Assembly: GCA_049472315.1 (NCBI GenBank)
Contig: JBLIRN010000013.1
Location: 9,562 to 73,561 of the forward strand
Reading direction: 5' to 3'
Length of the DNA stretch: 64,000 nucleotides
From: a bacterium
GTDB taxonomy: Bacteria; SZUA-182; DTGQ01; JAFGSM01
Part shown: positions 3,069 to 64,000 of the stretch, piece by piece
How the letters are laid out: each line of letters opens with the position of its first letter
How positions within the stretch are numbered: the stretch's first letter is position 1
Notes under the pieces: model-generated
The model's input: the letters and a program-made list of their open reading frames with translations, nothing else
Told to the model about the DNA's origin: nothing
Databases searched by the model: none
Position numbers and translations under genes: made by a program

Positions 3069-3090
3069 GCCCCTCCGGTATCCCGGTTGC

Positions 3091-39988: not shown

Positions 39989-40031
39989 TGATTCAGGTGC
40001 TCCCGGCTGAATGTACACTATTGGGGGAAAA

Positions 40032-45492: not shown

Positions 45493-45732
45493 AACAAGCC
45501 GATGGGAGTCCCATGTATGACCGATAAACGTTATATATGATGACAAATACAATAAATACCGATAAAGAATATAGAAAAATTGGGTGACCGACATCGCGAT
45601 TGTGTCAGAAACCACCCACAAGAGAGGATGGCACGGGGGGGCCGCAGTTCATGGCGATCAGACTTGTACGAAGGACACTGAGGAAGCAGTACGGGGGATT
45701 TTCTCCTTCCCTTGACAAAAGGGGGGGGAGAC

Positions 45733-46689: not shown

Positions 46690-47041
46690 TGCGCTGTCTT
46701 CCCTGAGACCGCGCATCCCCCTATTCGTTCATAAACTATCATTCCCCACAGTATCCCAGAAGGTTTTTAGTAGCTGCGCTTTTTTTCGCCAATGTATTGC
46801 CCAGTTCCAGCATAATTCAAATTAACCATAGGTAACAATTGATTATTTCTCCCAAGAGGCATACAATAATTCCCGAAGGGTTTTGTTTGGCATCGACGCT
46901 GTCCCGGCGGGTGAGGGCCGCGATGCCGTTGATACCGCTCAAATGAAGCGGGAACCAGCCGATTTACGGGATATGTGAGAGGAATCCTCTATTCGTGGGG
47001 TCGGGGTGGTCCCACGTAGCATACATACAGAAAAGGGAAAC

Positions 47042-49774: not shown

Positions 49775-50686
49775 ATGGATGAAGAGCACAAGGAAGGGAA
49801 TACCACCGAGGATCACTCCGTCAAGATAGCCGGCATTCAGATGGTGTGTCACCAGGAGACCGCCAGGAACCTGGAAAAGGCCCTCGGGCTCATCGACATG
49901 GCCGTGGAACAGGGTGCGCGGATCATATGCCTGCAGGAGTTCTTTCACACCCCCTGGTTTCCAGCCAGTGCGGACGAGGAAAATTTCAGGTTCGCCGAGG
50001 AGATATCGGGGCCCGTGGTGAGCGGCTTACGGAAGAAGGCGCGGGAAAAGGGGGTGGTGCTTGTTTCCCCCATCTTCGAGAAGGCCATGGACGGGCTCAA
50101 CTTCAGCACCACGGTGGTCATCGATGCGAATGGAAAGATTGCAGGGAAATATCGCAAGAACCACGTCCCCAACGTGCCCTGCTGGGAAGAGGGCTACTAC
50201 TGCGGCAGGGGGGATCTGGGATTTCCCGTTTTTCCCACCAGGTGGGGGGTCATAGGGGTGCAGATGTGCTGGGATAATTTTTATCCCGAGGGCTCCCGGA
50301 TCCTCGCCCTGAAAGGGGCCCAGGTCATCTTCTGCCCCACCGCGTGCGCCTTTGCCTCCCAGGGCAAATGGGAGAAGGTGATCGCGGCGAATGCCGTGAA
50401 CAACGCGGTTTTCTGTTTCCGGGTGAATCGGGTGGGAAAGGAAAACGGCCTTGATTTCTATGGACAGAGTTTTTGCGTTGATCCCGAAGGGGAGTTCATC
50501 GCAGGCCCGAGCGGCCTCACCGACGCCGTGGTCCTCGCCTCGGTGGATCTGACCAGGATAGAGGACACCCGCCGGACCTGGAATTTTTTCAAGGAACGAA
50601 GGCCTGAGATCTACGGCGAGGTTGTGGGCAGGGACTGGCTCAAGGCCTTGAACAACATGGTGACCAAGAAAAGGGGGGGGGCGTGA
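49775..50686 (+). CDS. Carbon-nitrogen hydrolase family protein (N-carbamoylputrescine amidase or nitrilase-like)
   Basis: Catalytic triad context E...K...C (the C in GVQMCWD). 303 aa. Confidence 0.8.
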   Translation: MDEEHKEGNTTEDHSVKIAGIQMVCHQETARNLEKALGLIDMAVEQGARIICLQEFFHTPWFPASADEENFRFAEEISGPVVSGLRKKAREKGVVLVSPIFEKAMDGLNFSTTVVIDANGKIAGKYRKNHVPNVPCWEEGYYCGRGDLGFPVFPTRWGVIGVQMCWDNFYPEGSRILALKGAQVIFCPTACAFASQGKWEKVIAANAVNNAVFCFRVNRVGKENGLDFYGQSFCVDPEGEFIAGPSGLTDAVVLASVDLTRIEDTRRTWNFFKERRPEIYGEVVGRDWLKALNNMVTKKRGGA

Positions 50687-51543
50687 TGGCACGTATTGGT
50701 TGGCATGTGCAAGGGTGTGCGGTCATGATACTCGCATTTCTATGTCTTTGGGCGGGAGGCAGGTGCGCTGCCCAGTATTACGGGCTCTTCGGTACAAGTC
50801 TGGGGTATTTGAATCAGCCCTCTCTCACCACGGTTCCCTTTCAATGGGGACAATCCTGGCCGTCGTCCCAGTTGGGTCAACCGTGGTCAACGCCCCAGTG
50901 GGGACAATCCTGGTCGGGGTTCGGTATGACCCCCTATTCGGATATCAGGGTACTCCCCTCACTCTCTTATGGGGGCTCCACGCAGACCAAGACGATGAAG
51001 GAGGGCGAACTGATCGTGGGGTTCAGCGGTCAGGTCAGCATCGAGCACCACACAGGCGGCCCACAGACCAACATAGCGGAGATCAACGAGCTTATCGAGC
51101 AGTTCGGGATCTATGAGATCCGCGCCTCACCCTCGGGGACATTCCATGTCCTCAAGTTCCCCGATGGTCAGGATGTGGAGGAGGTGCACCAGGCATTTTC
51201 CGGTATCACCGGGTATGTGGAGTACACCGAACCCAACTACATCACCAGAAGGGCACACTCCGGCTCCTCATCCATCACCTATCCCACTGCAGGGACCGGT
51301 TTATCCCTCTGGTCACAGGGTTCCCCGCTCCAGTCGTTCTCCCCTTCCATCACTTTTCCCTCTTACAATACGGGCACGGGCCTCGGCACCGGATGGGGGA
51401 TCCAGCCGTTTACCTACTCCCAATCCTCGTTCGGCGGATGGAACCAGTCGTTTCTGCAGCCCTCATACGGCACGTTCCGGTCGCCCTCATACAGCTCCTT
51501 CTGGCAGCCGTCGTCCGGCTCCTTCACTCGGTCCTGGTTGTAA
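50686..51543 (+). CDS. Secreted low-complexity (W/Q/S/G/Y-rich) protein with a central subtilase-propeptide (inhibitor I9-like) domain
   Basis: Signal peptide, QWGQSW repeats, a core ending ...GITGYVEYTEPNY that is typical of S8 pro-domains, and a Ser/Gly/Tyr-rich tail. Confidence 0.6.
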   Translation: MARIGWHVQGCAVMILAFLCLWAGGRCAAQYYGLFGTSLGYLNQPSLTTVPFQWGQSWPSSQLGQPWSTPQWGQSWSGFGMTPYSDIRVLPSLSYGGSTQTKTMKEGELIVGFSGQVSIEHHTGGPQTNIAEINELIEQFGIYEIRASPSGTFHVLKFPDGQDVEEVHQAFSGITGYVEYTEPNYITRRAHSGSSSITYPTAGTGLSLWSQGSPLQSFSPSITFPSYNTGTGLGTGWGIQPFTYSQSSFGGWNQSFLQPSYGTFRSPSYSSFWQPSSGSFTRSWL

Positions 51544-51579: not shown

Positions 51580-52413
51580 ATGGAGCGATTTAAGGAAGGG
51601 ACATTGGATCACACGCAACCCATCATCACGCTGACAACGGATTTCGGCATCAGCGGACCCTTCGTGGGGAGCATGAAGGGGGTCATACTGGAGATAAACC
51701 CCCGGGCACAGATCATTGACATCTCCCACGGGATTGACCCCTTCGACCTCCTGGATGCAGCCTTTCTGGTAGGCTGCGCCTATTCCTATTTCCCCTCCGG
51801 CACCATCCACTGTATCGTTGTCGATCCGGGGGTGGGGGGCGAGAGGCGGCCCATTGTCGCACTCAGCACTCGATACTCGTTCGTGGCCCCGGACAACGGT
51901 GTGCTCTCCTATATCTACGAGCAGGAATCGATCGAGCGGGTCATTCATTTGAAGGAACCCGCCTACTTTCTTCCGCGGATCAGCCGGACCTTTCACGGGA
52001 GGGATATCTTTGCCCCGGCTGCAGCCTGGCTCTCGCGCGGGATCGATCCGCAGCGCATGGGGCCTACGATAGATGACTATGTGCGCTGCGATATTCCGCG
52101 ACCGAGGGTCTCTATGAACGGCACCCGCATCCATGGTCGCGTGATTCACATCGATATATTCGGAAACCTGGTGACGAACATCCCGTTTTCCATGGTTGAA
52201 CATCGTCTGGGACCCGGGGAATCGGGATTTACTGTGACCATCAAGGATATTGTCATCGATCGCCTCTGCACGGCCTATGAGGATGCGGGGAAGGGCAAAA
52301 CCGGGGTCATCATCGGAAGCCACGGCTATATCGAGCTTTTTTCCAATCAGGATTCCCTGGCCAAGAGGGGCGGCATTGCAAAGGGTGAACCGCTCGAGGT
52401 GATCCTCGAGTGA
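51580..52413 (+). CDS. SAM hydroxide adenosyltransferase family (DUF62; fluorinase/chlorinase-like SAM hydrolase)
   Basis: IITLTTDFG ... IVVDPGVGGERRPI motifs. Confidence 0.75.
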   Translation: MERFKEGTLDHTQPIITLTTDFGISGPFVGSMKGVILEINPRAQIIDISHGIDPFDLLDAAFLVGCAYSYFPSGTIHCIVVDPGVGGERRPIVALSTRYSFVAPDNGVLSYIYEQESIERVIHLKEPAYFLPRISRTFHGRDIFAPAAAWLSRGIDPQRMGPTIDDYVRCDIPRPRVSMNGTRIHGRVIHIDIFGNLVTNIPFSMVEHRLGPGESGFTVTIKDIVIDRLCTAYEDAGKGKTGVIIGSHGYIELFSNQDSLAKRGGIAKGEPLEVILE

Positions 52414-52425
52414 GCAGGAGGAAGC

Positions 52426-53784
52426 ATGGATCGTTCATTGACGAATAAGGCCAGGGAGGTCCTGGACCGCTGCCTGAAGGGAAAGGCTACGGCAGGGGAG
52501 ATATGCCTCATGGAATCAAGAAACATTCATCTCGAGGTGGAGCGCGGTGACATAGATGTCATCAAGAATTCCCAGGACCGGCTGTTGGCGGTGCGCGTAC
52601 TCAGGGGCCATTCCCTCGGGTTTGCGTATTGCACCGATTTTTCACCCTCCTCCCTGGATATGCTGGTGGATCAGGTCATGAACTCGGCGGCAAGCACCGA
52701 TGAGGACCCCCACTATCACTTTCCTGCCTCCCGGAAGGGAACAACCCCCGTGACCATGGACGAGCGGTTGTCCTCTGTTCCCCTCACGGAGAAGTTCAAG
52801 CGATGCCAGGAGATGGAGCGGGCTGCCTACCAGACCGATTCCCGGATCAAGGTTGCGCGGCAGTTTTCCTATTCGGAGACCATCACCGACGTCTACCTGG
52901 TCAACTCCCACGGCCTCGAAGTGTCCTACGGCAAGAGTGCCTGCTCCACCTTTGCCATGGTGGTGGCCCAGGAGGGCTCGGATGCACAGATGGCATGGGA
53001 GATGGATATACAGACCTCCTATGACCGCCTGAGATGGGACGAGGTGGGCCAGGGGGCTGCGCACAAGGCCCTTGCCCTGCTCGGCGCCCGGTCAATCGGC
53101 ACCCGCAGGGCGCCGGTTATATTTTCTCCACCTGTGGGAATCAGCATCATGGGCGCCTTTTCACCTGCCTTTTTTGCCGATGCGGTTCAGAAGGGCCGTT
53201 CCCTCATGGCGGGCCGCCTGGGACAGATCGTGGCCTCCCCTGCAGTGAGCCTGGTGGATAACGGGCTCCTTGAGGGGGGCCTTGCCACCGCCCCCTATGA
53301 CGGGGAGGGGGTGCCCACGCAGAAGACGGTCATTGTGGACAAGGGGAGGCTTGCCACCTACCTCTACGACAGCTATACCGCGCATAAGGACGGGGTAGCG
53401 TCGACCGGAAACGGGGTCAGGCCCGGATCGAAGTCCCAGCCCCAGGTGGGGGCCACGAATTTCTACGTCGAAAAGGGGACATGCACCGAGGACGAGCTTC
53501 TCGCCGACATCCGGGAGGGGTTCTATGTGACGGATGTCATGGGCGCGCATACCATCAACCCGATCTCAGGTGATTACTCCCTGGGTGCCACCGGTCACTG
53601 GATCAAGGGGGGGCGGCGGGAATACCCGGTGCGGGGAGTGACCATCTCCGGAAACGTGCTGGATATGCTCACAAACATCTCCCGGTGCGCGGATAACCTC
53701 CGCTTCTACGGCCCCTTCGGCGCCCCCACCATACTGGTCTCGGGGATGATCATTGCGGGTGAGGAGACCGGTGCAGAGGGGTAA
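52426..53784 (+). CDS. TldD/PmbA-family metalloprotease
   Basis: 452 aa with PmbA_TldD N- and C-terminal domains (…GDYSLGATGHWIKGG…). Confidence 0.8.
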   Translation: MDRSLTNKAREVLDRCLKGKATAGEICLMESRNIHLEVERGDIDVIKNSQDRLLAVRVLRGHSLGFAYCTDFSPSSLDMLVDQVMNSAASTDEDPHYHFPASRKGTTPVTMDERLSSVPLTEKFKRCQEMERAAYQTDSRIKVARQFSYSETITDVYLVNSHGLEVSYGKSACSTFAMVVAQEGSDAQMAWEMDIQTSYDRLRWDEVGQGAAHKALALLGARSIGTRRAPVIFSPPVGISIMGAFSPAFFADAVQKGRSLMAGRLGQIVASPAVSLVDNGLLEGGLATAPYDGEGVPTQKTVIVDKGRLATYLYDSYTAHKDGVASTGNGVRPGSKSQPQVGATNFYVEKGTCTEDELLADIREGFYVTDVMGAHTINPISGDYSLGATGHWIKGGRREYPVRGVTISGNVLDMLTNISRCADNLRFYGPFGAPTILVSGMIIAGEETGAEG

Positions 53785-53967
53785 ACAAGATACTCGTAAT
53801 GGGTAACGCATGTTATCCTGATCATGGGATTCCCCTTCAAAGAGCCTTTTTATTGCATCACAAACAATGGTAAAAGGGTTGAGAATATACTGGCCCAGTT
53901 CTCCTCAAAAAATGCCCTTGAATCAATGAATTAAAAAAAATGATAGAAAATTTTCTAAAAAATTTTC

Positions 53968-53996
53968 TTGACAAACCTTACCTTCCTAGTTATGAT
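53968..53996 (+). promoter_or_regulatory. Consensus sigma-70 promoter (TTGACA-N17-TATGAT) with an A/T-rich UP-like element, inside the AT-rich island
   Basis: Read directly. It lies about 1.1 kb upstream of the giant protease ORF. Confidence 0.4.
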
Positions 53997-55109
53997 TAAA
54001 AAAGTTGATTTTCAGATATTACAGCGTAGCTTTTTATGATTCTCCCAGGTATAGCTGGGCGGGAACTCTGAAACTGATCCATCAGGTAAAATTTATTGCC
54101 ATTCAAAATGGCTATTCTTAAAAAATGACTCAGCTATTAGAATGGCAAAAGTCTGAATAAAAAAAGTGGGAATATTTAGAGTCATTTGAGAATCCATCCT
54201 CAACAAGGTTTTTTGTGCCTTAACCCTTTCTTTTTGCTTCTCTGAACGGTGTATTAGATATTAAATTCGAAATTGTTGTTCCAAGATAATAATTTCGGAT
54301 ATAAGATACTGATAAACTTGTTCTTTTTTCATTTCTGCAAAAGAATCTCTGGATATATTTAAACCATATTTTTAATTCAAGGCGATGATCAATACTATCG
54401 AAGTGTTCGGATTATAATGTCTAAAAAGGGCATTTATCAAAGAATTTGACAGCTTTTATATTCGATCGTTTAAAACTGCAACAAAGAATCGGTTTAATAA
54501 GATTGACCTGTTGAAAGCAAAAAGCCAAATTTTTTGAGACACTTGAACGCTAATGGGCGATGATTAAGAGCCGAAGTTGAAGATCTGGACTTTTCTACTT
54601 ATATTTTCGGGTTTGTCTGAAAAGTAAATGCCTGACGCATCAAAATCAATATGAGTCAGAAACTTAGAATATAAGATTTCCAAAAACCAAAAAGGGGGAA
54701 AATTCATTTTTCTTACGTCTATTAAATCAAGATTCAAAAAACCTTTTTTGGAAGTGGCTAGAGTTCGATCCACAGTAAAAAGTGTGCCGGTTGTTCCTCG
54801 CGTTCTATAGTGCTTAAGGGGTGAAGAAAATAAAACGGCATGAATAGATCAAAGAGCAATAATCATCGCTTTATATAGAATTGTCATAACCGGATATGTC
54901 GCCCATATCGCATCGGCCATAGACGTTATCCCACCTTATGTTTTTCCTTCCTATGGCTTTTGGCTTTAGCCAAGATTGTTCTTAACAAACAAAAAAATCA
55001 AAATTTCTTATGAAAACAATGACGCTGGTTCACTGGATACCTATATTATTTTTCTAAAAGTCCCAATTAAGTTCACATATAACTGCCAGGAGCAGAGGGA
55101 GGTTAGGTC

Positions 55110-58100
55110 ATGAAAGGTTCAGGCATAAGTAACGTAAGCGATAAAGGAAGGCTTCATGTGATTATTGTTGTTCTCTTTATGCTGATGTTATTTGTGGCTT
55201 CCGGTTTCATAGAGTGTATCCCCATGATGTTTTTTGAACGGATGTCTCTGAAGAAAACCGCCATGGCAGAAATAATGGGTTTTATGGATAATAATCCCTT
55301 GTATTCTCCTCAAGAGACCGGGCTTAAGGATGGCAAGGATGACAAGGATGGCAAGGGTGGCAGGCATGATGATGAGGATCTTTCAGTTTCACCTACCAGT
55401 CATGATTTCGGAGACGTCCAGATAGGGACAAGAGGGTCAGTAACCATAACCTTGACGAATACGGGCGATGATAGAATCAGAGTAAAAAAAATACGAATAA
55501 AAAATAAAGAATTCAGCCATAATGCGGAGATCCCATTAAGTATCCCTCCCTTTGGCAGTGTCAGTTTTGAGGCAATGTTCACCCCCGCTGATGAAGGTAT
55601 AACAACAGGTATCTTGAAGATCACCAGTGATAAGCATCATGGTCATGACCTGGAAGTAATCCTGACCGGCACGGGAATCCCATCACCGGGTGCTCGATTA
55701 GATCCTTCTCTCTTACATTTTACCTTAGAGCCGTCTGATCCTCCTGCTGATCTTCAATCCATCCTTTCTAATATAGGCAAGGGTATTTTGTCCTACCAGA
55801 TAATCTCGGTCGAGGAGACAGGCAATCCTCTCGGTATTCTTTCCGAACAAAAAATAAGTCTCAAAAGCGGGGCAAAGACCGCTCCTGTAAACACCTCACT
55901 CATCTACAGTCAAGGCAGTTACAACAACAGCTTTGCCCCCGGGCGGATAATTGTGGGGCTAAAGGACGGCGCTGAATCATTTGCCGATGCCGACCTATTA
56001 AACAATATTGGAGCCGGTTCCATGCGGGAGCTGGCCACAGCCAGAAGGCCTTGGACCGGCTCGCGGTCATACTTCGGCAGGAAGTTGTTCCTGTTATCCA
56101 TGGATAATCAAACCGAACAGGGCGTCATCGATGCCATCGCTATACTCAAGGAAGATGCCAATGTGGCCTATGTGCAGCCGGACTTCAGGGTCAGCGCCAT
56201 AGGCGTCATACCGAATGACCCCGACTTCGGCTTACTCTATGCCATGCACAATGAAGGGCAGACCGGGGGGAGCCCGGATGCGGATATCGATGCACCCGAG
56301 GCATGGGATACGCACACAGGAACAGGAAATATTCTGGTCGGTGTTATTGACACGGGGATCGACTATACCCATCCGGACCTTGTGGACAATATCTGGACGA
56401 ATCCCGGCGAGATACCGGGTAACGGGATCGATGACGACGGCAACGGGTATGTTGACGATGTGTATGGCTGGGATTTCTGCAACGATGACAACGATCCGTG
56501 GGATGACCATGGTCACGGCACCCATTGTGCCGGAACAATAGCCGCGACAGGGAATAACGGCATAGGCGTGGTCGGCGTATCATGGAAGGCCGGGCTGGTC
56601 GCCCTGAAGTGTTTGGATTGGAGCGGATCGGGATGGACTTCGGATGCGGTTGATGCAGTGGCCTATGCCAACGCCATGGGGATTCCGGTCACCAGCAACA
56701 GCTGGGGTGGTGGCCCTTATGATCAGGCACTGAAGGACGTGATCGACGCTGCCGGCAGCCTTGGCTACCTGTTTGTTGCCGCGGCGGGAAACAGTGGGAT
56801 GAACAATGATGTGCTTCCCGATTATCCATCCGGTTATGATTGTGAAAACATCATAGCCGTTGCTGCCACGGACCATAATGACCAACTCGCCTCTTTTTCC
56901 AATTACGGTCCGATCACGGTGGATCTGGGCGCACCCGGGGTTGATATCTATAGCTGTCTGCCTTTAGAAGGCTATGCGTACAAATCGGGCACCTCCATGG
57001 CAGCGCCGCATGTCGCCGGTGCAGCGGCCCTGGTATGGAGCCACAATCCCGGTTTATCGGGTGCGCAGGTAAAGGCTGCAATACTGGAGGGTGTGGATGT
57101 CGTGCCCTCCCTTACGGGGATGGTCCTGAGTGAAGGAAGGCTCAATGTGAACCAGGCGCTCGAGAAGACAGGATTGCCCTGGCTTTGGGCCGCGCCCGTG
57201 GAGCCGGGCACATTGAATCCCGGTGCAGGACAACCGATCACGGTAACCGTCGATCCCGAGGGACTGGTTGCCGGGCAGTGGACCGGGCTGATTACCCTTT
57301 CGACCAATGATCCTGTAAATCCCACGCCGACCATCGAGGTCATAGCGGATATAAGCGGATGCCGGACCCTTTCGGTCTCACCCGATTTCCATGATTTCGG
57401 CGAGGTCTGGGTCGGTGGGGACTCATCGGTGACCATAACCTTGAAAAACGGCTGTAACGACAGGACCACGGTGAGTGCGATTACGACGGACAAAGGGGTG
57501 TTCGGCCACGATGCGGTTCTGCCTCTGGAGGTCCCGCCCTTCGGCAGTGTCAGCTTTGAGGCGACGTTCGCTCCCGTGGATGAAGGTCCGGCAAAAGGCA
57601 TCATGACGATCACCAGCGATGCGCAGGATAATCCTTTGCTTGAGGTGATCCTCTCCGGCACAGGTTTATTTCCTCCGGAGATCGAAATTGACCCGGAGAG
57701 TTTCTCGGAGGTCCTGGACCTTGGAGATCGCGTGACCAGGACACTGACGATTACGAACAGCGGCGGAGACGATCTGATATTTGATATTTCGATTGAAGGT
57801 GTGGAAGGTCTGAGTGTGAAGGTGGAGGATGTTGTTTCTTCTCAACCATCCAAGGCATTCATATCTTCTGATGTGAGGCCGGGATTTCGATACGAGAATA
57901 ACTCTACACCCGGATATCAGTATAACGTTAATGATCTGCACAACAGCAACCTTGGGATAAGGCTGGATCGCGTCATAAACGTCCTGGTCATGTCACCGGT
58001 GAGCGATTATGATTGGGTGGCTGAAAATTTTGGTGCCAATATGACGGATGTGACCTTTGAAACATACGACATAGGCTATGACGTACCGGATTTGGAATAT

Positions 58101-61100
58101 CTTCAAGCCTTTGATGTGGTCTTGATGTTTAGAAATTTTCCCGCTGAAAATTCTCCCGGAGTTGGTGATCGGCTGTACGAGTACGTGATGTCAGGCGGCA
58201 ATCTGGTGATGGGGAATTTCTATTGGATGGAGCGGGATTGGGGCATGGGGTGGGGTGCCTTGGAAACGATCGATCCGGTTTATGAAGGAGCCTGTGACGG
58301 CTCGTATGCCAAGTTGGATACGAAGAGCATCATCCCCCATCCTTTAACCACTGGACTCACCGAATTGGGCTGTATAGGGCGTGGCGGGCCTGTGACCGTG
58401 CGCGATGGTGCGACGGCTGTGGCCTGGTGGACGGACGGTGATCCCCTGCTCGTGTTTAACGAGCCGGCTGGTCGAATTACGGCTGTCACCGTATTTCCGG
58501 CAGCCCCTTTTTATGAACCGGTTGTGGGGGATTTCTACCTGCTGTGGGAAAATGCACTCAAGTGGACCGCCGAAGGAGGAAAGAGGTGGCTATCGGTGGA
58601 TCTATCATCGGGCAGAATACCGGCAGGCATGTCCCTGGCCATAGAGGTGAGCTTTGATGCCATGGATATGGTTGCAGATACGTATCTTGGCAACCTGAAC
58701 ATCAGCCACAATGCACTCAATGCGACCGATCCCCTATCCGTTCCCTGCACGATGGTTGTCAATGCAGTAAAACACCTCGATGTCTCACCTGCAGTACACG
58801 ACTTTGGAAAAGTCTGGACAGGGACAAACGGCTCCGTAACCCTGACCCTGACGAATTCGGGCAATGGTGCAACCACGGTACGAGGCATTGCAATAGACAA
58901 CCTGGCGTTCGGACACGATGCAGTTCTGCCCCTGGAGGTTCCGCCGTTTGGCAGTGCCGGCGTTGAGGCGACCTTTGCTCCTCTGGATGATGGTCCGGCA
59001 ACAGGTATCATGACGATCACCAGTGATGCAGCGGACAATCCTTCGCTTACGGTGACCCTTTCCGGCACAGGTGTTCTTCCTCCGGAGATCCGGGTTACTC
59101 CGGAGGGTTTCTCGGAGGTCCTTGATCCCGGGGATAGTGCCGTAAGGACGCTGACGATTACGAACATCGGCGGGGAGGATCTGGAATTTGGTATGAATAT
59201 TGAGATGCTGGGTGCGCCTGAAGCGTTGTCGGCGGATGCAGGGATAGTGAACATCCTTGTCTGGAACAAGTATTCGGATAACTCTCCAACCGGGGAATAT
59301 GTAAATACCCTGAATGCCATTGCAGCCTATTGTACGGATTTCACGGCTGAGCCCACTGATGTGACCGATCCTATTGCATTACAGGCATTATTGACGGGTA
59401 AGGAGGTCTTTTTGATTCCCGAGCAAGAGCGGGCCTTGCCTGACATTACGACGATCGGCGCGTCGTGGGCGCCGGTGCTTTCCGATTTTGTGTCCTCGGG
59501 CGGAACGGTGATTTTTTGCGGGGAGTTCTGGGCCAGTAATGGGTTCATCACGAGTACAGGACTAATGGAAGTGGCGTTAGTACGTACATCGATAAATGTC
59601 CCATTAACCGTAGTTGCCCCGGATCATCCATTGGCGGAGGATGTGCCGGGAAGCCTCAGGGGAGAGAATGCCACAGGATGGTATGATGTCAGGACACCGG
59701 ACGCGGACGTGGTTGTTGTGGAAAGTGCCTCATATTACCCTGTTGTTGCATCAAGGGGCCTTGGCTCGGGAAATGTGGTGTTATTGGGCTTCGATTATTA
59801 TTTATACAATAACGATATGGCACGCATCATTGCCAATGCCGTCCAGTTCGGCCCGACATGGCTCTCGGTCAAACCCGTATCAGGCATCGTTCCACCGGGA
59901 TTGTCGATAGAAATAGCCGTGAGCTTTGATGCCAGGGATATGGTGGCAGATACGTATCTCGCCAACCTGAACATCAGCCACAATGCACTCAATGCGCCCG
60001 ATCCCATATCCGTTCCCTGCATGATGGGTGTCAATGCAATGAAACTTCTCGATGTCACACCTGATAGCCATGATTTTGGAAACGTTTTTGTGGAAGAAAC
60101 CGAATCCGTAATCCTCACCCTGACGAATTCGGGCAATGATACGTGCACGGTAAGCGCCATTGAAATAGACAATCCGGTCTTCACCCACGATGCCATGATA
60201 CCCCTGGAGGTCCCGGCCTTTGGCAGTGTCAGCTTTGAGGCAACGTTCGCTCCTGAGGATAAAGGCCCGGCAACAGGCATCATGACGATCACCAGCGATG
60301 CGGATGATAATCCGTCAATTGAGGTGACCCTTTCCGGGACAGGTGTTTTCCCTGCGTTAATCGAAATTACCCCGGAGATACTCTCAGAGGTTTTGGATCT
60401 TGGAGATATTGTCACCAGGACACTCACTATTACAAATAGTGGTGGCATTGATCTGGAGTTTGCTATCAGTGGGCCCACCATAGAAAGTATGGCGGGCGTC
60501 GAGCCATACACGTATGATTCAAGCCATTATGAAAGGATTCCCAAAGGTTCGGAAGACCCGCGTATAGGGCAGATAGTTCCGTATGATATGGGTGGCCCGG
60601 ATGTCTTTGGATATAGATGGGTCGATTCCGACGAGCCGGGTGGCCCTGTGTTTGAATGGATTGATATCGTTGATCCGGCCAACTGGCTCTACATTTCGGA
60701 TGCTGATGATGATTATCAGGAACTGCCGCTCAGCTTCCCGTTCAGCTTTTACGGGGTTGAATATACCAGCATCTTTGTGGGGAGCAACGGGTATATAACC
60801 TTTGACCAGGGAAGCTACGAATGCTCTCATTCCCCGATTCCTTCACCTTACATGCCCGCCATGGTTGCAGGATTCTGGAGCGATCTTTATCCAGGGGTAT
60901 TGGGGGACATCTACTTTAAGGATCTTGGCGACAGGGCGATCGTTCAATTTGAAAATGTGATGCATATCAGCGGCATGGGCATATATACCTTTCAAATGGT
61001 GCTTCATGCTCATGGCACCATCAATCTCTATTATAAGGAGATGATGGGCGACGCATCCTTCTCAACCGTAGGTATCCAGGATGAATGGGGAGCTGACGGG

Positions 61101-64000
61101 CTCGGGATCGCCTATAACACACCCTATTTAAAGGATCTCCTGGCAATCCGCATTTCTTCCGGTCCTTCATGGCTCAGGGTTTCACCCGGATCAGGCATCG
61201 TCCCTCCCGACCGGAGCGCCAATGTGGATGTGACCTTTGATGCCACCGGTCTTGTGGCAGGGGTATATGAAATTACGATGGAGATAGGCCACAATGCCAT
61301 AAATGCCCCTGATCCCATGCCTGTCCCCTGCACGCTGGCGGTGAATAGCTTTAGAAGCCTCGATGTTTCCCCTGCCGGTCATGATTTCGGAGATGTATTT
61401 ATAGGGGCCAGCGATTCCGTGGCCATCACGTTGACGAACAAGGGTAATCACATAACCACAGTGAGTGCTATTATTCTGAATAATTCGGAGTTCAGCCATG
61501 ATGCAATGACTCCCCTGGAGATACCGCCCTTTGGCAGCGTCAGTTTTGATGCCTCGTTTACTCCTGAAGACGTAGGCCCGGAAACAGGCGTCGTGACGAT
61601 CACCAGTGATGCAAAGGATAATCCCATTCTTACGGTTACCCTTTCCGGTATGGGTTTGTTTCCTCCGGAGATCATGATCAGCCCGGATAGCTTCTCCGAG
61701 ATGTTGGATCTCGGGGGTCGTGTCACCAGGACACTGACCATCACCAACACGGGTGTCAGTGATCTTGAATTCGATATTGTCGGTGAAAGGGTGGATGCAC
61801 TCGATGATACGACAACTGACGGCCGGGAGATTGATCTGAATGATGCGATCAATGTATTGGTCCTTTCCACCTGCGATTATGACTGGGTAGCTGCAAATTT
61901 CGGCGCCAACATGACGGATATGGCATTTGAAACCATGGACATAAATCTTGATATTCCGGATTTGGAATATCTCCGATTATTTGATGTCGTTTTGCTCTTT
62001 CAATGCTGGACATCCGATGTCTCCCCCCAGGTGGGTGATGCATTGTATGATTATGTGACGTCCGGCGGCAATCTGGTCCTCGGGCTGGAATATTGGGCCA
62101 CCAGTGAGATAGGACTGGGGTGGGGTGCCCTTGCAACCATCGATCCACTCTATGGTGGAATGTCTGATTACACCTACGAAGAGCTGGATACGGAGAGCAT
62201 CGTACCGCATCCCTTGACCGCGGGGCTCACCGAATTGGGCTGTATTGCGCGCGGCGGGCCTGAGACCGTGCGTGAAGATGCAACAACAGTGGCATGGTGG
62301 ACGGACGGCGATCCCCTGATCACGTTTAACGAGCCGGGGGGAAGAATCACCGCCGTTACGGCGTTGCCTTCAGAGCCCCAGTATAACCCGGTTATGGGGG
62401 ATTTCTATCTGCTGTGGGAAAATGCGCTGAAATGGACGGCTGAGGGGGGAACACCTCAATGGCTCTCGGTAATACCGGAATCCGCGACCGTCATGCCCGG
62501 CGCATCCATAGCAATAGATGTCACCTTTGACGCCACGGATATGGTTGCAGGTACGTATCGTGCCAACCTGAACATCAACCACAATGCACTCAATGAGCCC
62601 AATCCCTTGCCTGTTCCCTGCTCAATGCTTGTCAACGGCGTAAAACGACTTGCGGTGTCACCTTCCAGCATTGATTTTGGCAATATGTTTGCGGGAGGAA
62701 TGAAGGTGGTAACCATGACCTTGACCAATGCCGGCAATGATACGACTATGGTGAGTGAGATCAGCACGGATAATCCGGTGTTCGGTGTTAAGGCAATTCT
62801 GCCCATGAAGGTCCCGCCCTTCGGCAGTACAACCTTTGATGCCCTATTCATACCCTTCGATCTGGGTACTGAAACAGGCACCATGGTGATCAGCAGCGAT
62901 GCAGAGGATAATCCGACACTCGTCGTTGATCTTGCCGGTACGGGCGTACCTCCTCCGGAGATCAGTGTTCACCCGGACGGCTTCTCCGAGAAATTGGATC
63001 CGGGATATGCGGTCACAAGGACGATGACCATAACGAACAGCGGCGGATATGATCTGGAGTTTGCCATCAGCGGACCCACCATAGCGGGTATGGCGGGCAT
63101 CGAGCCGTACCGGTATGATTCGACCCATTATGAAAGGATTCCCAAGGGTTCGGAAGACCCGCGTATAGGGCAGCCAGTCGTGTATGATAGCGGCGGCCCG
63201 GATGGCTTCGGATACACGTGGGTCGATTCCGACGAGCCGGGTGGCCCTGTGTTTGAATGGATAGATATCGCTGATCCGGCCAACCGGCTCTACATATCGG
63301 ACGCCGATGATGATTTTCAGGAGGTGCCGCTCAGCTTCCCGTTCAGCTTCTACGGGGTTGAATATACCAGCATTTTTGCAGGAAGCAACGGCTACATCAC
63401 CTTCGGCCTGGGCAGCTACGAATGCTCTCATTTCCCGATTCCGTATCCCTATATGCCCGCCATGGTAGCAGGATTCTGGAGCGATCTCTGCCCTGCGATG
63501 TCAGGAGACATCTACTTTAAGGATCTTGGCGACAGGGCGATCGTTCAATTTGAAAATGTGACGCATATCAGTGACATAGGGGTGTACACCTTTCAAATGG
63601 TGCTTTGTGCGGATGGGGCCATTCATCTCTATTATAAAGAGCTGATGGGCAACGCGGCCATGTCGGCCGTAGGAATCCAGGATGCATGGGGAGTTGACGG
63701 GCTCGGGATCGCCTATAATACCCCCTATCTAAAGGATTTCCTGGCAATCCGCATTGCCGCCGGTCCATCCTGGCTCAAGGTTTCACCCGGATCGGGCATC
63801 GTTCCTCCCGGCAAGAGCGTCGATGTGGATGTGACCTTTGATGCCACCGGCCTTATGGCGGAGGTATATGAACTCACCATGGAGATAGGCCACAATGCCA
63901 CAAATGCACCGAGTCCCCTACTTGTCCCCTGCGCATTGGGGGTGAATACGATGAGACGACTCGATGTCTCCCCTGCCGGTCATGATTTCGGCAATGTATG
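55110..64000 (+). CDS. Giant secreted S8 subtilase-family multidomain protein (more than 2960 aa, partial, running off the window). It carries an N-terminal signal anchor, an S8 pro-domain with D/H/S catalytic core, at least 8 ASH/choice-of-anchor-D-like Ig domains, and two pairs of duplicated about 200-aa modules.
   Basis: GAGGGAGG Shine-Dalgarno sequence and ATG at 55110. No stop codon for 8.9 kb. DTGID / HGHGTHCAG / GTSMAAPHVAG triad motifs. Repeated HDFG.V..G.S...T.TN.G......FEATFAP.D.GP..G.MTITSDA.DNP modules. Confidence 0.85.
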   Translation, partial: MKGSGISNVSDKGRLHVIIVVLFMLMLFVASGFIECIPMMFFERMSLKKTAMAEIMGFMDNNPLYSPQETGLKDGKDDKDGKGGRHDDEDLSVSPTSHDFGDVQIGTRGSVTITLTNTGDDRIRVKKIRIKNKEFSHNAEIPLSIPPFGSVSFEAMFTPADEGITTGILKITSDKHHGHDLEVILTGTGIPSPGARLDPSLLHFTLEPSDPPADLQSILSNIGKGILSYQIISVEETGNPLGILSEQKISLKSGAKTAPVNTSLIYSQGSYNNSFAPGRIIVGLKDGAESFADADLLNNIGAGSMRELATARRPWTGSRSYFGRKLFLLSMDNQTEQGVIDAIAILKEDANVAYVQPDFRVSAIGVIPNDPDFGLLYAMHNEGQTGGSPDADIDAPEAWDTHTGTGNILVGVIDTGIDYTHPDLVDNIWTNPGEIPGNGIDDDGNGYVDDVYGWDFCNDDNDPWDDHGHGTHCAGTIAATGNNGIGVVGVSWKAGLVALKCLDWSGSGWTSDAVDAVAYANAMGIPVTSNSWGGGPYDQALKDVIDAAGSLGYLFVAAAGNSGMNNDVLPDYPSGYDCENIIAVAATDHNDQLASFSNYGPITVDLGAPGVDIYSCLPLEGYAYKSGTSMAAPHVAGAAALVWSHNPGLSGAQVKAAILEGVDVVPSLTGMVLSEGRLNVNQALEKTGLPWLWAAPVEPGTLNPGAGQPITVTVDPEGLVAGQWTGLITLSTNDPVNPTPTIEVIADISGCRTLSVSPDFHDFGEVWVGGDSSVTITLKNGCNDRTTVSAITTDKGVFGHDAVLPLEVPPFGSVSFEATFAPVDEGPAKGIMTITSDAQDNPLLEVILSGTGLFPPEIEIDPESFSEVLDLGDRVTRTLTITNSGGDDLIFDISIEGVEGLSVKVEDVVSSQPSKAFISSDVRPGFRYENNSTPGYQYNVNDLHNSNLGIRLDRVINVLVMSPVSDYDWVAENFGANMTDVTFETYDIGYDVPDLEYLQAFDVVLMFRNFPAENSPGVGDRLYEYVMSGGNLVMGNFYWMERDWGMGWGALETIDPVYEGACDGSYAKLDTKSIIPHPLTTGLTELGCIGRGGPVTVRDGATAVAWWTDGDPLLVFNEPAGRITAVTVFPAAPFYEPVVGDFYLLWENALKWTAEGGKRWLSVDLSSGRIPAGMSLAIEVSFDAMDMVADTYLGNLNISHNALNATDPLSVPCTMVVNAVKHLDVSPAVHDFGKVWTGTNGSVTLTLTNSGNGATTVRGIAIDNLAFGHDAVLPLEVPPFGSAGVEATFAPLDDGPATGIMTITSDAADNPSLTVTLSGTGVLPPEIRVTPEGFSEVLDPGDSAVRTLTITNIGGEDLEFGMNIEMLGAPEALSADAGIVNILVWNKYSDNSPTGEYVNTLNAIAAYCTDFTAEPTDVTDPIALQALLTGKEVFLIPEQERALPDITTIGASWAPVLSDFVSSGGTVIFCGEFWASNGFITSTGLMEVALVRTSINVPLTVVAPDHPLAEDVPGSLRGENATGWYDVRTPDADVVVVESASYYPVVASRGLGSGNVVLLGFDYYLYNNDMARIIANAVQFGPTWLSVKPVSGIVPPGLSIEIAVSFDARDMVADTYLANLNISHNALNAPDPISVPCMMGVNAMKLLDVTPDSHDFGNVFVEETESVILTLTNSGNDTCTVSAIEIDNPVFTHDAMIPLEVPAFGSVSFEATFAPEDKGPATGIMTITSDADDNPSIEVTLSGTGVFPALIEITPEILSEVLDLGDIVTRTLTITNSGGIDLEFAISGPTIESMAGVEPYTYDSSHYERIPKGSEDPRIGQIVPYDMGGPDVFGYRWVDSDEPGGPVFEWIDIVDPANWLYISDADDDYQELPLSFPFSFYGVEYTSIFVGSNGYITFDQGSYECSHSPIPSPYMPAMVAGFWSDLYPGVLGDIYFKDLGDRAIVQFENVMHISGMGIYTFQMVLHAHGTINLYYKEMMGDASFSTVGIQDEWGADGLGIAYNTPYLKDLLAIRISSGPSWLRVSPGSGIVPPDRSANVDVTFDATGLVAGVYEITMEIGHNAINAPDPMPVPCTLAVNSFRSLDVSPAGHDFGDVFIGASDSVAITLTNKGNHITTVSAIILNNSEFSHDAMTPLEIPPFGSVSFDASFTPEDVGPETGVVTITSDAKDNPILTVTLSGMGLFPPEIMISPDSFSEMLDLGGRVTRTLTITNTGVSDLEFDIVGERVDALDDTTTDGREIDLNDAINVLVLSTCDYDWVAANFGANMTDMAFETMDINLDIPDLEYLRLFDVVLLFQCWTSDVSPQVGDALYDYVTSGGNLVLGLEYWATSEIGLGWGALATIDPLYGGMSDYTYEELDTESIVPHPLTAGLTELGCIARGGPETVREDATTVAWWTDGDPLITFNEPGGRITAVTALPSEPQYNPVMGDFYLLWENALKWTAEGGTPQWLSVIPESATVMPGASIAIDVTFDATDMVAGTYRANLNINHNALNEPNPLPVPCSMLVNGVKRLAVSPSSIDFGNMFAGGMKVVTMTLTNAGNDTTMVSEISTDNPVFGVKAILPMKVPPFGSTTFDALFIPFDLGTETGTMVISSDAEDNPTLVVDLAGTGVPPPEISVHPDGFSEKLDPGYAVTRTMTITNSGGYDLEFAISGPTIAGMAGIEPYRYDSTHYERIPKGSEDPRIGQPVVYDSGGPDGFGYTWVDSDEPGGPVFEWIDIADPANRLYISDADDDFQEVPLSFPFSFYGVEYTSIFAGSNGYITFGLGSYECSHFPIPYPYMPAMVAGFWSDLCPAMSGDIYFKDLGDRAIVQFENVTHISDIGVYTFQMVLCADGAIHLYYKELMGNAAMSAVGIQDAWGVDGLGIAYNTPYLKDFLAIRIAAGPSWLKVSPGSGIVPPGKSVDVDVTFDATGLMAEVYELTMEIGHNATNAPSPLLVPCALGVNTMRRLDVSPAGHDFGNV

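What the first reader, a model, noticed from the sequence alone, without database searches (positions are those of the whole stretch)
55110..64000. Giant secreted S8 subtilase with many ASH/choice-of-anchor-D Ig-like domains and duplicated accessory modules. It is absent from the ORF track because it has no stop within the window.
An uninterrupted + strand ORF runs from a strong Shine-Dalgarno/ATG at 55110 to the window end, more than 2960 codons. The architecture has several parts. First, a signal anchor. Second, an ASH-like domain, a pro-domain (…YVQPDF) and a complete S8 catalytic core (D in VGVIDTGID, H in HGHGTHCAG, N in AAGNSG, S in GTSMAAPHVAG). Third, at least 7 more copies of an about 100-aa Ig-like module with the signature HDFG.V..G....T.TLTN.GN.....I......F.HDA..PLE.PPFGS..FEATFAP.DEGP..G.MTITSDA.DNP. 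These resemble ASH/choice-of-anchor-D domains. Fourth, two copies of an about 200-aa module resembling a class-I glutamine-amidotransferase/ThuA-like fold (DYDWVA.NFGANMTD..FET.DI..D.PDLEYL..FDVVL). Fifth, two copies of an unassigned about 220-aa module (GY.WVDSDEPGGPVFEWIDI...FPFSFYGVEYTSIF.GSNGYITF). This is a highly unusual surface or matrix protease and likely part of the same extracellular system as the I9-like protein and the Gly/Tyr protein.
Basis: partly seen in the sequence, partly recalled or inferred. Interest (0 to 1): 0.75.

Follow-up and report, generated by a model that had tools for sequence, protein, structure and literature searches.

The report
Giant modular secreted subtilisin-type protease
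This is the intact 5' part (2963 codons, cut by the contig end) of a giant secreted subtilisin-type protease from an unclassified bacterium. Its long chain of immunoglobulin-like domains carries the protease and five accessory modules as "heads", and it belongs to a large, already catalogued but uncharacterised protein family.

Summary
An ORF opens at a GGAGG/ATG at 55110 and runs without a stop to base 64000 (2963 codons). That base is also the end of the source contig: NCBI holds the same protein, marked "partial".

The protein begins with one N-terminal hydrophobic signal segment. A complete S8 core follows (D414, H469, N561, S629), closest to the collagenolytic subtilase deseasin MCP-01 (E=3e-98).

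Downstream the grammar is strict: (choice-of-anchor-D Ig, half-Ig "b", globular module, half-Ig "a"), repeated. The modules in the window are:
- pro-S8;

Spliced b+a sequences match a single Ig profile. The modules therefore look nested inside split Ig domains, which is an inference.

An 86%-identical ortholog is collinear over 8.6 kb with dN/dS 0.34. It ends 454 aa further on, with no sorting-signal domain.

Thousands of relatives share this architecture, so the protein is not "highly unusual". The proposed link to the I9-like and Gly/Tyr proteins has no support. Verdict: a new variant of a known kind, of modest interest.

The parts
53811..55109 (.). AT-rich (GC 0.34), ORF-free 1.3 kb gap between pmbA/tldD and the giant gene. 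It is the presumed promoter/leader region.
   Evidence: It has 9 sigma-70-like sites against 4.3 expected. No Rfam match reaches threshold.
55098..55102 (+). Shine-Dalgarno GGAGG, 7 nt upstream of the ATG. An in-frame TAG lies at 55104-55106.
   Evidence: sequence read directly.
55110..64000 (+). Whole ORF: 2963 codons with no stop, truncated by the window and contig end.
   Evidence: P0002 is 100% identical, 'partial', 2925 aa counted from M39.
55110..55223 (+). N-terminal signal peptide or signal anchor (aa 1-38). The hydrophobic core is aa 16-34, with a possible VAS|G cleavage site.
   Evidence: it is the only strongly hydrophobic 19-mer in the protein (Kyte-Doolittle 2.7).
55224..55379 (+). 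K/D/G-rich linker (aa 39-90). It has no homolog in the ortholog.
55380..55679 (+). Choice-of-anchor-D Ig domain D0 (aa 91-190).
55680..55817 (+). Half-Ig 'b0' (aa 191-236), the N-terminal half of the split Ig that hosts pro-S8.
   Evidence: the b0+a1 chimera matches Ig profile positions 25-97 of 100.
55917..56195 (+). Pro-domain (aa 270-362), fervidolysin/I9-like, ending ...YVQPDF.
   Evidence: Fervidolysin_NPro-like, E=1e-3, below the cutoff. The position is as in the family.
56292..57164 (+). S8 catalytic domain (aa 395-685): D414, H469, N561, S629, with the Ca-loop NPGEIPGNGIDDDGNGYVDD.
   Evidence: 3vv3 deseasin MCP-01, E=2.7e-98.
57165..57368 (+). Half-Ig 'a1' (aa 686-753).
57369..57824 (+). 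CoA-D Ig D1 (aa 754-853) plus half-Ig b1 (853-905).
57942..58583 (+). ThuA/GATase1-like module T1 (aa 945-1158).
58575..59231 (+). Half-Ig a2, CoA-D Ig D2, half-Ig b2 (aa 1156-1374).
59241..59834 (+). Third insert 'Ins3' (aa 1378-1575), a divergent ThuA/GATase1-like module.
   Evidence: Pfam ThuA, full length, E=0.28. (hhalign against the T profile, E=3e-5, 165 columns).
59844..60503 (+). Half-Ig a3, CoA-D Ig D3, half-Ig b3 (aa 1579-1798).
60507..61148 (+). NIDO-like module N1 (aa 1800-2013).
   Evidence: (pLDDT 89.5).
61158..61814 (+). Half-Ig a4, CoA-D Ig D4, half-Ig b4 (aa 2017-2235).
61815..62456 (+). ThuA/GATase1-like module T2 (aa 2236-2449).
62448..63104 (+). Half-Ig a5, CoA-D Ig D5 (SIDFG variant), half-Ig b5 (aa 2447-2665).
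63108..63749 (+). NIDO-like module N2 (aa 2667-2880).
63759..64000 (+). Half-Ig a6 (aa 2884-2950) and the first 13 residues of CoA-D Ig D6, cut by the contig end.

Best explanation
The gene encodes a Sec-exported, self-activating extracellular endopeptidase of the subtilisin family, in the deseasin MCP-01 branch.

Its catalytic unit and five non-catalytic globular modules are displayed along a long stalk of Ig-fold domains. The stalk alternates an ordinary choice-of-anchor-D Ig domain with a 'split' HYDIN/VesB-type Ig domain. The two halves of the split domain (b and a) flank a nested module. In the window the nested modules are, in order: pro-S8, ThuA/GATase1-like, divergent ThuA-like, NIDO-like, ThuA-like, NIDO-like.

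Shown here:
- the intact ORF and the catalytic residues;
- the identity of the folds;
- the repeat grammar;
- purifying selection on every part.

Inferred:
- The ThuA-like modules are binding or assembly heads, not enzymes, because they lack a conserved nucleophile cysteine.
- Together with the NIDO-like β-sandwiches they hold the protease on insoluble or polymeric substrates, or on the cell's own matrix. This parallels the accessory domains of deseasin and other polymer-degrading enzymes.
- The physiological role is extracellular protein degradation for nutrient acquisition.
- By analogy with the ortholog, the full protein is about 3400 aa and ends after a last split Ig domain with no sorting signal. 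Localisation would then depend on the N-terminal segment and on the binding modules.
For: Gene integrity:
- ORF, Shine-Dalgarno and upstream stop.
- A single hydrophobic N-terminal segment.
- The ortholog L001 is collinear from nt 55386 to 64000 at 89.5% nt identity, with only in-frame indels. dN/dS is 0.34 overall, 0.19 for S8 and 0.21-0.35 for the inserts.

Catalytic core:
- Pfam S8 at 1e-59.
- D, H, N and S lie in columns that are invariant or nearly so across 47 family members.
- Deseasin MCP-01 (3vv3) matches at E=2.7e-98 over the whole catalytic domain, including the Ca-binding insertion.
- MCP-01 is an abundant extracellular collagenolytic serine protease of a deep-sea bacterium (PMC5691207, PMC6606773).

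Ig domains: choice_anch_D at 289.8 bits.

T module:
- AF2 pLDDT 88.5, pTM 0.89.
- No invariant cysteine in the module alignment.

Ins3: homologous to T.

N module: NIDO in 21 of 25 copies, and RemA at 1e-14.

Split-Ig nesting:
- b+a chimeras match one Ig profile across the junction (31.7, 24.8 and 24.8 bits). The a half alone scores 12 bits and the b half gives no hit.
- Natural contiguous 'ba' domains exist in P0009 and P0022.
- In 48 proteins, all 174 b halves are followed by an a half. Between them lies NIDO (91), an unassigned module (39), ThuA-like (26), Ins3 (10), S8 (6) or nothing (2).

3' end: the ortholog ends ...LVVNSL* one residue after an a half.
Against: - No activity, localisation or expression data exist for this protein or, as far as I could find, for any family member.
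- The 3' end of this particular gene is missing, so a sorting signal in this genome cannot be excluded.
- The ortholog carries at least 1240 aa of extra repeats upstream of its S8 unit and lacks the window's first 92 residues. The N-terminus therefore differs between close relatives, and one of the two assemblies could be wrong there.
- NCBI's own annotation starts the protein at M39, which would remove the signal segment.
- The nesting of modules in split Ig domains rests on profile matches and grammar, not on a structure of a whole b-module-a unit.
- The binding role of the ThuA-like and NIDO-like modules is an argument by analogy. No ligand is known for either domain family.
Confidence: 0.6

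Rival explanations
1. It is primarily a surface adhesin or matrix scaffold, a RemA/SprB-like fibre. The S8 domain serves only for self-processing or shedding, and the Ig stalk with its NIDO-like and GIFT/ThuA-like heads mediates attachment or cell-cell cohesion.
For: - The NIDO-like module matches the N-terminal region of the gliding adhesin RemA (E=1.1e-14).
- More than 75% of the residues are non-catalytic.
- Many relatives carry T9SS-type or FlgD-Ig-like C-terminal tails, which are typical of surface-attached proteins.
Against: - The S8 core is the most conserved part of the protein (dN/dS 0.19).
- It is very close to a bona fide digestive protease.
- Relatives add further digestive proteases (M4, C25) to the same scaffold, which points to degradation rather than adhesion.
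- The ortholog has no surface-anchoring tail.
Confidence: 0.2
2. It is a polyprotein precursor. Autoprocessing at the pro-domain, and possibly at inter-unit linkers, releases separate fragments that act independently: an N-terminal anchor fragment, the protease, and the binding modules.
For: - Subtilases cleave their pro-domain (established knowledge of family S8).
- Here the pro-domain is internal, preceded by 260 aa. In relatives the S8 unit lies deep inside the chain, after M4 proteases and several units. Cleavage would necessarily nick the chain there.
Against: - If b0 and a1 really form one Ig domain, a nick after the pro-domain would not separate the pieces.
- No conserved cleavage motifs between units were looked for or seen.
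- Nothing here tests processing.
Confidence: 0.12
3. It is an assembly artefact or a decaying pseudogene: a repeat-collapsed or chimeric contig end that does not correspond to an expressed protein.
For: - Both available assemblies break inside this repeat-rich gene.
- The two differ at the 5' end.
- dS is elevated (0.66) in the first 170 aligned codons.
Against: - 8.6 kb is collinear between two independent MAG assemblies with no frameshift.
- dN/dS is 0.19-0.45 in every segment.
- The paralogous units differ by 13-35% at the protein level, enough to be assembled.
- The catalytic residues are intact.
Confidence: 0.04

Closest known systems
Deseasin MCP-01 (Pseudoalteromonas sp. SM9913; PDB 3vv3), a collagenolytic subtilase of MEROPS family S8
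   Same: The catalytic domain aligns end to end (E=2.7e-98). This includes the Asp-rich Ca-binding insertion after the catalytic Asp, and the D/H/N/S residues. Both are exported pre-pro-enzymes with non-catalytic C-terminal domains thought to engage insoluble substrate.
   Different: To my knowledge MCP-01 is a protein of under about 900 aa whose C-terminal extension is made of PPC and PKD domains. Here Pfam finds no PPC or PKD domain. The extension is at least 2300 aa of CoA-D/split-Ig units carrying ThuA-like and NIDO-like modules, and an Ig domain plus a half-Ig precede the pro-domain.
The database family of about 2470-aa 'S8 family serine peptidase / choice-of-anchor D domain-containing protein' of Krumholzibacteriota, Eisenbacteria, Polarisedimenticolia, Fibrobacterota and Chitinispirillales (for example P0033, P0077, P0007, P0031)
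   Same: It has the same S8 branch and the same (D, b, module, a) grammar with NIDO-like modules. It is uncharacterised experimentally.
   Different: Typical members have 4-5 NIDO modules and a C-terminal tail. The tail is either about 310 aa ending in a FlgD-Ig/T9SS-like domain or a conserved tail of about 50 aa. Fibrobacterota-type members add an N-terminal M4 protease. The window protein and its ortholog replace most NIDO slots with ThuA-like modules, and the ortholog has no tail. Similar T-rich, tail-less relatives are P0004, P0005 and P0053, at 36-38% identity.
ThuA-like / GATase1-like proteins (PDB 2gk3 STM3548, 3rht, 4jqs, 1t0b) and GIFT domains (IFT52, OST48)
   Different: Sequence similarity is marginal. 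No Pfam model reaches its cutoff; the best hits are GLMA_2nd at 8e-5 and ThuA at 0.012 among the copies. There is no catalytic Cys. The module is extracellular and nested in an Ig array rather than a stand-alone cytoplasmic or periplasmic protein. The module family itself is large (3200 representatives at E<=1e-10) but has no model of its own.
NIDO domain (Pfam PF06119; nidogen, alpha-tectorin, MUC4) and the N-terminal region of Flavobacterium johnsoniae RemA (chain 8gl6_D)
   Same: There are sequence-profile matches. NIDO is hit by 21 of 25 homologous modules. RemA residues 51-191 are hit at E=1.1e-14, sharing the FPFYG...SSNG...F and FWDD motifs.
Human site-1 protease (MBTPS1; PDB 8uw8_A)
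   Different: It is a eukaryotic membrane-bound processing protease with a single such domain, no Ig array and no detectable sequence relationship in the accessory part. I did not examine that structure further.

Membership tests
Peptidase family S8 (subtilases) | Pfam PF00082 match above the gathering score. | tested here: met
   202.7 bits against a cutoff of 21.8, aa 407-660.
Peptidase family S8 (subtilases) | Catalytic triad in the order Asp-His-Ser, plus the oxyanion Asn, in the canonical motifs (DTG, HGTH, GTSMA, N of AAGN). | tested here: met
   D414, H469, N561 and S629. The corresponding columns are invariant or at least 90% conserved in 47 family members and align to deseasin.
Peptidase family S8 (subtilases) | N-terminal pro-domain acting as an intramolecular chaperone and inhibitor. 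| tested here: inconclusive
   Fervidolysin_NPro-like scores 19.9 bits against a cutoff of 21 (E=1e-3), covering only profile positions 11-44 of 81. The position and the ...YVQPDF end fit the family consensus ...V.YAEPNY.
Peptidase family S8 (subtilases) | Proteolytic activity. | not testable with these tools
   Needs expression and an assay.
Deseasin (MCP-01-type) subtilases | Catalytic domain closely similar to MCP-01, including the Ca-binding insertion. | tested here: met
   3vv3_A, E=2.7e-98, query 99-415 against chain 4-325.
Deseasin (MCP-01-type) subtilases | C-terminal PPC and PKD domains (architecture as I know it for MCP-01). | tested here: not met
   There is no PPC or PKD hit among the 25 Pfam families found. 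The extension is made of CoA-D/split-Ig units.
Choice-of-anchor D domain proteins (NCBIfam NF012200) | HMM match above the cutoff. | tested here: met
   289.8 bits against 45, in 10 stretches.
Choice-of-anchor D domain proteins (NCBIfam NF012200) | One of several alternative C-terminal anchoring signals (PEP-CTERM, LPXTG, T9SS CTD and others), which gave the domain its name. | tested here: inconclusive
   The 3' end is outside the window and the contig. The 86%-identical ortholog ends one residue after a half-Ig with no extra domain. No hit to such signals was found in Pfam or NCBIfam within the window part.
ThuA / class-I glutamine-amidotransferase-like fold | The fold: a flavodoxin-like α/β core plus a β-meander. 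| tested here: met
ThuA / class-I glutamine-amidotransferase-like fold | Pfam ThuA (PF06283) match above the gathering score. | tested here: not met
   T1 gives no hit. Ins3 gives E=0.28, 11.8 bits against 33.4. Among the 21 aligned copies the best ThuA E-value is 0.012.
ThuA / class-I glutamine-amidotransferase-like fold | Cys-His-Glu catalytic triad of true class-I amidotransferases. | tested here: not met
   There is no invariant or nearly invariant Cys in alignment A2. The invariant positions are L54, G75, L78, G86 and H133.
NIDO domain (PF06119) | Pfam match above the gathering score over most of the profile. | tested here: inconclusive
   The whole protein scores 30.9 bits against 25, but from two partial stretches. 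A single copy scores 21.1 bits over profile positions 2-53 of 186. 21 of 25 homologous modules match, best 1.9e-10.
Type IX secretion cargo | C-terminal Por_Secre_tail/T9SS CTD. | tested here: not met
   It is absent from the window part and from the ortholog's true C-terminus. It is present in some distant relatives (PF18962).

The most novel reading that the evidence does not exclude
The (CoA-D Ig, split Ig with a nested head) unit is a general plug-in display scaffold. Evolution swaps catalytic heads (S8) and at least four kinds of binding heads (NIDO-like, two ThuA-like types, and several unassigned modules of 160-280 aa) into the same loop of a host Ig domain. The result is single-chain 'proteolysomes' of 2400 to more than 4500 aa. 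Nesting would also keep the chain together after pro-domain cleavage, because the two Ig halves clasp the nick. In this lineage the whole cassette, with its AT-rich leader, may have been inserted at the 3' end of pmbA, leaving a 68-nt direct repeat.
Probability: 0.25. Interest if true: 0.55.

Novelty: new variant of a known kind. Interest (0 to 1): 0.35.

Why it matters
Giant extracellular proteases of uncultured bacteria are likely major agents of protein turnover in sediments and soils, yet none of this family has been studied.

The useful outcomes here are practical:
- The gene is real and under selection.
- The protease head is of a characterised (deseasin) type that can be expressed on its own.
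- The two mystery modules now have fold or family assignments.
- The ThuA-like module represents a large extracellular domain family (about 3200 cluster representatives at E<=1e-10) that no Pfam model detects above its cutoff.
- The strict b-module-a grammar gives a testable structural hypothesis, domain nesting in Ig hosts. That hypothesis would explain how such long multi-head proteins are built and diversified.

None of this overturns current understanding, so the finding is of moderate rather than high interest.

Tried and rejected
- Self-BLAST of the whole protein returned only the trivial hit. Chunked BLAST was used instead.
- Looking up the source contig through P0002 failed: the protein is not on record.
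- A word-indexed homolog search with the T module found only 4 small proteins. The exhaustive profile search was needed.
- A metagenome scan with the N-terminal 400 aa found no close relative, only one locus at 22% identity. Conservation of the signal segment could therefore not be tested.
- The SecA scan of genomes placed the organism only among unnamed 'bacterium' MAGs. The next relatives are at about 52-57% identity in mixed phyla. No phylum could be assigned.
- Sequence searches of single modules against the PDB gave nothing useful.
- Literature searches for 'choice-of-anchor D' with subtilases, and for bacterial NIDO domains, returned nothing relevant.
- The idea that the I9-like 286-aa protein is a paralog of the giant's pro-domain was rejected: BLASTP E=0.37.
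- The idea that the AT-rich gap hides an RNA gene or an IS element was rejected: only sub-threshold Rfam hits and no ORF longer than 69 aa.
- I considered that the ortholog's extra N-terminal repeats are simply a misassembled copy of downstream units. I rejected this because those units are distinct sequences (84% or less nt identity to any window unit, and one contains a module type absent from the window). A chimeric join within a conserved CoA-D domain remains possible.
Full report
**1. The observation**

Translating window 55110-64000 on the + strand gives 2963 codons without a stop. The ATG is preceded by GGAGG (55098-55102) at a 7-nt spacing. An in-frame TAG at 55104-55106 means the reading frame cannot begin further upstream. 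The ORF lister omits it only because it runs off the window end.

- YVQPDF at aa 354
- VGVIDTGID at aa 410
- HGHGTHCAG at aa 467
- AAGNSG at aa 558
- GTSMAAPHVAG at aa 627

The catalytic residues are D414, H469 (the first His of HGTH), N561 and S629. The only strongly hydrophobic 19-mer in the whole protein is aa 16-34 (Kyte-Doolittle 2.7). It follows K/R residues and is followed by V-A-S|G. An export signal, cleaved or anchoring, is therefore credible.

A homolog search found the identical protein in NCBI (P0002). It is 100% identical, 2925 aa, marked 'partial', and named 'MAG: choice-of-anchor D domain-containing protein', on a 74,124-bp contig. Since 2925 = 2963 - 38, NCBI started it at M39 and the contig ends exactly where the window ends. 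The truncation therefore belongs to the assembly, not to the window.

**2. Anatomy**

Pfam gives Peptidase_S8 at 1e-59, seven HYDIN/VesB/CFA65-like Ig stretches, ASH, Cep192 and TMEM131-like Ig families, and a weak NIDO hit. NCBIfam gives choice_anch_D at 289.8 bits against a cutoff of 45, in 10 stretches.

Chunked self-comparison and home-made module HMMs resolve a super-repeat. Here 'a' is a segment of about 67 aa, D is the 100-aa HDFG-type choice-of-anchor-D domain, and 'b' is a segment of about 50 aa. T is the ThuA-like module, Ins3 the third insert, and N the NIDO-like module.

In this notation the window protein reads: signal, linker, D0, b0, [pro-S8], a1, D1, b1, [T1], a2, D2, b2, [Ins3], a3, D3, b3, [N1], a4, D4, b4, [T2], a5, D5, b5, [N2], a6, D6 (cut).

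The HDFG/IDFG signature therefore occurs seven times in all, the last copy truncated.

**3. The modules**

*T1/T2 (aa 945-1158 and 2236-2449).*
- Single-sequence Pfam and PDB searches were empty.
- With an alignment of 21 copies from the family, AlphaFold gave a confident model: pLDDT 88.5, pTM 0.89.
- No Pfam model reaches its cutoff.
- No cysteine is conserved; the invariant positions are L54, G75, L78, G86 and H133. The module is therefore not a classical amidotransferase.
- An exhaustive profile search shows the module is common but has no model of its own. There are 4320 cluster representatives at E<=1e-3, 3200 at <=1e-10 and 787 at <=1e-30. They occur in proteins of 255 to 6259 aa with up to ten copies each.

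*Ins3 (aa 1378-1575).* This is a divergent member of the same superfamily. Pfam ThuA aligns over its full length at E=0.28. Profile-profile comparison with the T alignment gives E=3e-5 over 165 columns, with the FDVV/EVFL, GG and HPL motifs in register.

*N1/N2 (aa 1800-2013 and 2667-2880).*
It is NIDO-like.
- The window copies score just below the cutoff singly: 21.1 bits against 25, covering profile positions 2-53 of 186.
- However, 21 of 25 homologous modules hit NIDO, the best at 1.9e-10.
- The module profile hits residues 51-191 of the Flavobacterium gliding adhesin RemA at E=1.1e-14.
- The AlphaFold model is a confident β-sandwich, pLDDT 89.5.
- The AlphaFold-database library was unavailable.

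*S8 core.* The closest solved relative is deseasin MCP-01 (3vv3) at E=2.7e-98, aligned over the entire catalytic domain including the Asp-rich Ca-binding insertion. Thermitase and other subtilisins follow at about 1e-49. [quoted passage not shown] It is discussed as an agent of marine protein degradation (PMC6606773).

**4. Nested modules in split Ig domains (inference)**

Several observations suggest that 'b' and 'a' are the two halves of one Ig domain:
- Alone, 'a' matches only the C-terminal half of the HYDIN/VesB Ig profile (positions 53-97 of 100; 12 bits). 'b' matches nothing.
- When b and a are spliced in silico, the chimeras match a single Ig profile continuously across the junction:
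  - b3+a4 scores 31.7 bits (cutoff 25.5), profile positions 12-85 of 100.
  - b1+a2 scores 24.8 bits.
  - b0+a1, the pair that flanks pro-S8, scores 24.8 bits, profile positions 25-97 of 100.
- Two relatives (P0009, P0022) have natural b-a domains with only 5-6 residues between the halves.
- Across 48 family proteins, all 174 detected b halves are followed by an a half. Between them lies a NIDO-like module (91 cases), an unassigned module of 162-278 aa (39), a T module (26), Ins3 (10), the S8 unit (6) or nothing (2). The a half is followed by D in 178 of 185 cases.

The simplest reading is that every second Ig domain hosts a globular head inserted in a loop, and that the protease itself is one such head. 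This remains an inference.

**5. Relatives, the missing end, and integrity**

The best homolog, P0001, is 4570 aa and 86% identical. It lies on contig JBLIRP010000023.1 of a sister MAG.
- Its ORF is open to its own contig end, so it is truncated at the N-terminus.
- It is collinear with the window from nt 55386 (aa 93) to 64000 at 89.5% nt identity.
- It continues for 454 aa as D, b, T, a, then stops at ...LVVNSL*, one residue after a half-Ig.
- No frame continues the protein and no sorting-signal domain is present.
- By analogy the window's protein would be about 3400 aa and tail-less. P0005 and P0057 also end at an 'a' half.

Codon-level comparison over 2866 aligned codons shows only in-frame indels. 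dN/dS is 0.34 overall, with 0.19 for S8, 0.21-0.35 for the inserts and 0.45 for the Ig arrays. Two independent assemblies thus agree on the order and frame of units 1-6, and every part is under purifying selection. The gene is not a pseudogene.

One discrepancy remains. The ortholog carries at least 1240 aa of additional, distinct units upstream of its D-pro-S8 segment and has no counterpart of the window's first 92 residues. dS is also elevated (0.66) in the first 170 shared codons. Either the 5' ends really differ between these close relatives, or one assembly is chimeric within a conserved CoA-D domain.

The window's start is supported by three things:
- the Shine-Dalgarno sequence and the upstream stop;
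- the unique hydrophobic segment;
- the more distant relatives P0004, P0005 and P0053, which likewise begin signal, b, [pro-S8], a.

**6. How common it is**

The whole-protein search returned 3656 proteins at E<=1e-10 among the scored candidates. Dozens of proteins of 2400-4500 aa share S8, CoA-D and NIDO. They come from Krumholzibacteria, Eisenbacteria, Polarisedimenticolia, Fibrobacterales and Chitinispirillales, and many are annotated 'S8 family serine peptidase'. Subtypes differ in three ways:
- head composition;
- added proteases (M4, C25);
- C-terminal tails (about 310 aa ending in a FlgD-Ig/T9SS-like domain, a conserved tail of about 50 aa, or none).

The window protein is a T-rich, apparently tail-less variant. 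I found no paper on any member.

**7. Context and the 'same system' claim**

The upstream genes on the same strand are listed below.

| Window coordinates | Product or domain |
|---|---|
| 40011-43530 | two sensor kinases |
| 43546-45492 | helicase |
| 45712-46689 | M23 peptidase |
| 47006-49762 | SecA |
| 49775-50686 | CN-hydrolase |
| 51580-52413 | SAM hydroxide adenosyltransferase |
| 52426-53784 | PmbA/TldD |

A 1.3-kb AT-rich, ORF-free gap follows PmbA/TldD.

The Gly/Tyr protein is a secreted GGY-repeat protein at 15897-16472, 39 kb away. The genes in between are housekeeping genes. The I9-like protein shows no similarity to the giant's pro-domain. Neither protein has a homolog beside the related giant genes in L001, L026 or L027. 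Nothing supports a shared system.

SecA places the organism only among unnamed 'bacterium' MAGs, at 96%, 85% and 84% identity. All other hits are at about 46-57% and scattered over several phyla.

**8. Verdict**

The gene encodes a deseasin-type subtilase displayed with ThuA-like and NIDO-like heads on a long Ig stalk. Most probably it is an extracellular protein-degrading enzyme whose heads bind polymeric substrate or matrix.

It is a variant within a large, catalogued but unstudied family, so its novelty and interest are moderate. The most interesting by-product is the nested-head grammar, which is testable by structure prediction of whole units.

Noticed in passing
L001 13878-13945 versus window 53716-53783: About 100 nt after the ortholog's stop codon lies a 68-nt copy (86.8% identity, including the stop codon) of the last 68 nt of pmbA/tldD. 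In the window, pmbA/tldD lies upstream of the giant gene. This would fit the AT-rich leader plus the giant gene being an insertion at the pmbA 3' end, flanked by a direct repeat. The right-hand junction of the window's own genome is not available.
   Followed up: partly
window 53811-55109: This is a 1.3-kb ORF-free intergenic region with GC 0.34 in a genome of about 55% GC. It has 9 sigma-70-like sites against 4.3 expected and 4 terminator-like hairpins against 1.0 expected. Only sub-threshold Rfam hits were found. The first 276 nt of the giant ORF are also AT-rich (GC 0.42).
   Followed up: partly
window 28061-28198 (intergenic) versus L001 16177-16314: A 138-nt element is 96.4% identical between the two MAGs, more conserved than the coding sequence, and sits at non-syntenic places. 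It contains GAATGTC/GAATGTA heptamer repeats, repeated GATGAAACGCA motifs and two hairpins. The fold z-score is only -1.7 and there is no Rfam match. It is possibly a small dispersed repeat element.
   Followed up: partly
window 15897-16472 (+): A secreted 192-aa protein with a signal peptide followed by about 100 aa of (L)GGYGGYGG repeats, with no Pfam family. It lies in a locally AT-rich stretch (GC 0.46). Its function is unknown.
   Followed up: partly
window 50683-51543 (+): A 286-aa protein with a signal peptide, Q/W/S/G/Y-rich low-complexity flanks and a central Fervidolysin_NPro-like (I9-like) domain (3.9e-8). It is a stand-alone pro-domain-like protein. Its start is conserved next to the CN-hydrolase gene in the sister MAG.
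   Followed up: partly
window 19890-19986 (+): A tRNA-Sec gene (ARAGORN and Rfam, 71 bits), indicating selenoprotein synthesis in this organism.
   Followed up: no
window 55110-55223 versus the NCBI record (P0002): The public annotation starts the protein at M39 and so drops the only hydrophobic export segment. The ATG at 55110 has the better Shine-Dalgarno sequence and is the first start after an in-frame stop.
   Followed up: yes
P0001 aa 456-705 (L001), and 39 b-a slots in other family members: Further nested modules of 160-280 aa match none of T, Ins3 or NIDO and have no Pfam hit. The P0001 example looks GATase1-like by eye. The family thus holds several more unassigned head types.
   Followed up: no
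P0121-P0123 (small proteins of 242-372 aa): The T module also exists as a stand-alone secreted or lipoprotein-like protein at 46-48% identity. One copy sits behind a Cys-rich N-terminal region.
   Followed up: no
window 3028-4506 (+) and 3091-4455 (-): Two long ORFs (492 and 454 aa) overlap almost completely on opposite strands. The + strand one has no Pfam hit. I did not determine which one is the real gene.
   Followed up: no
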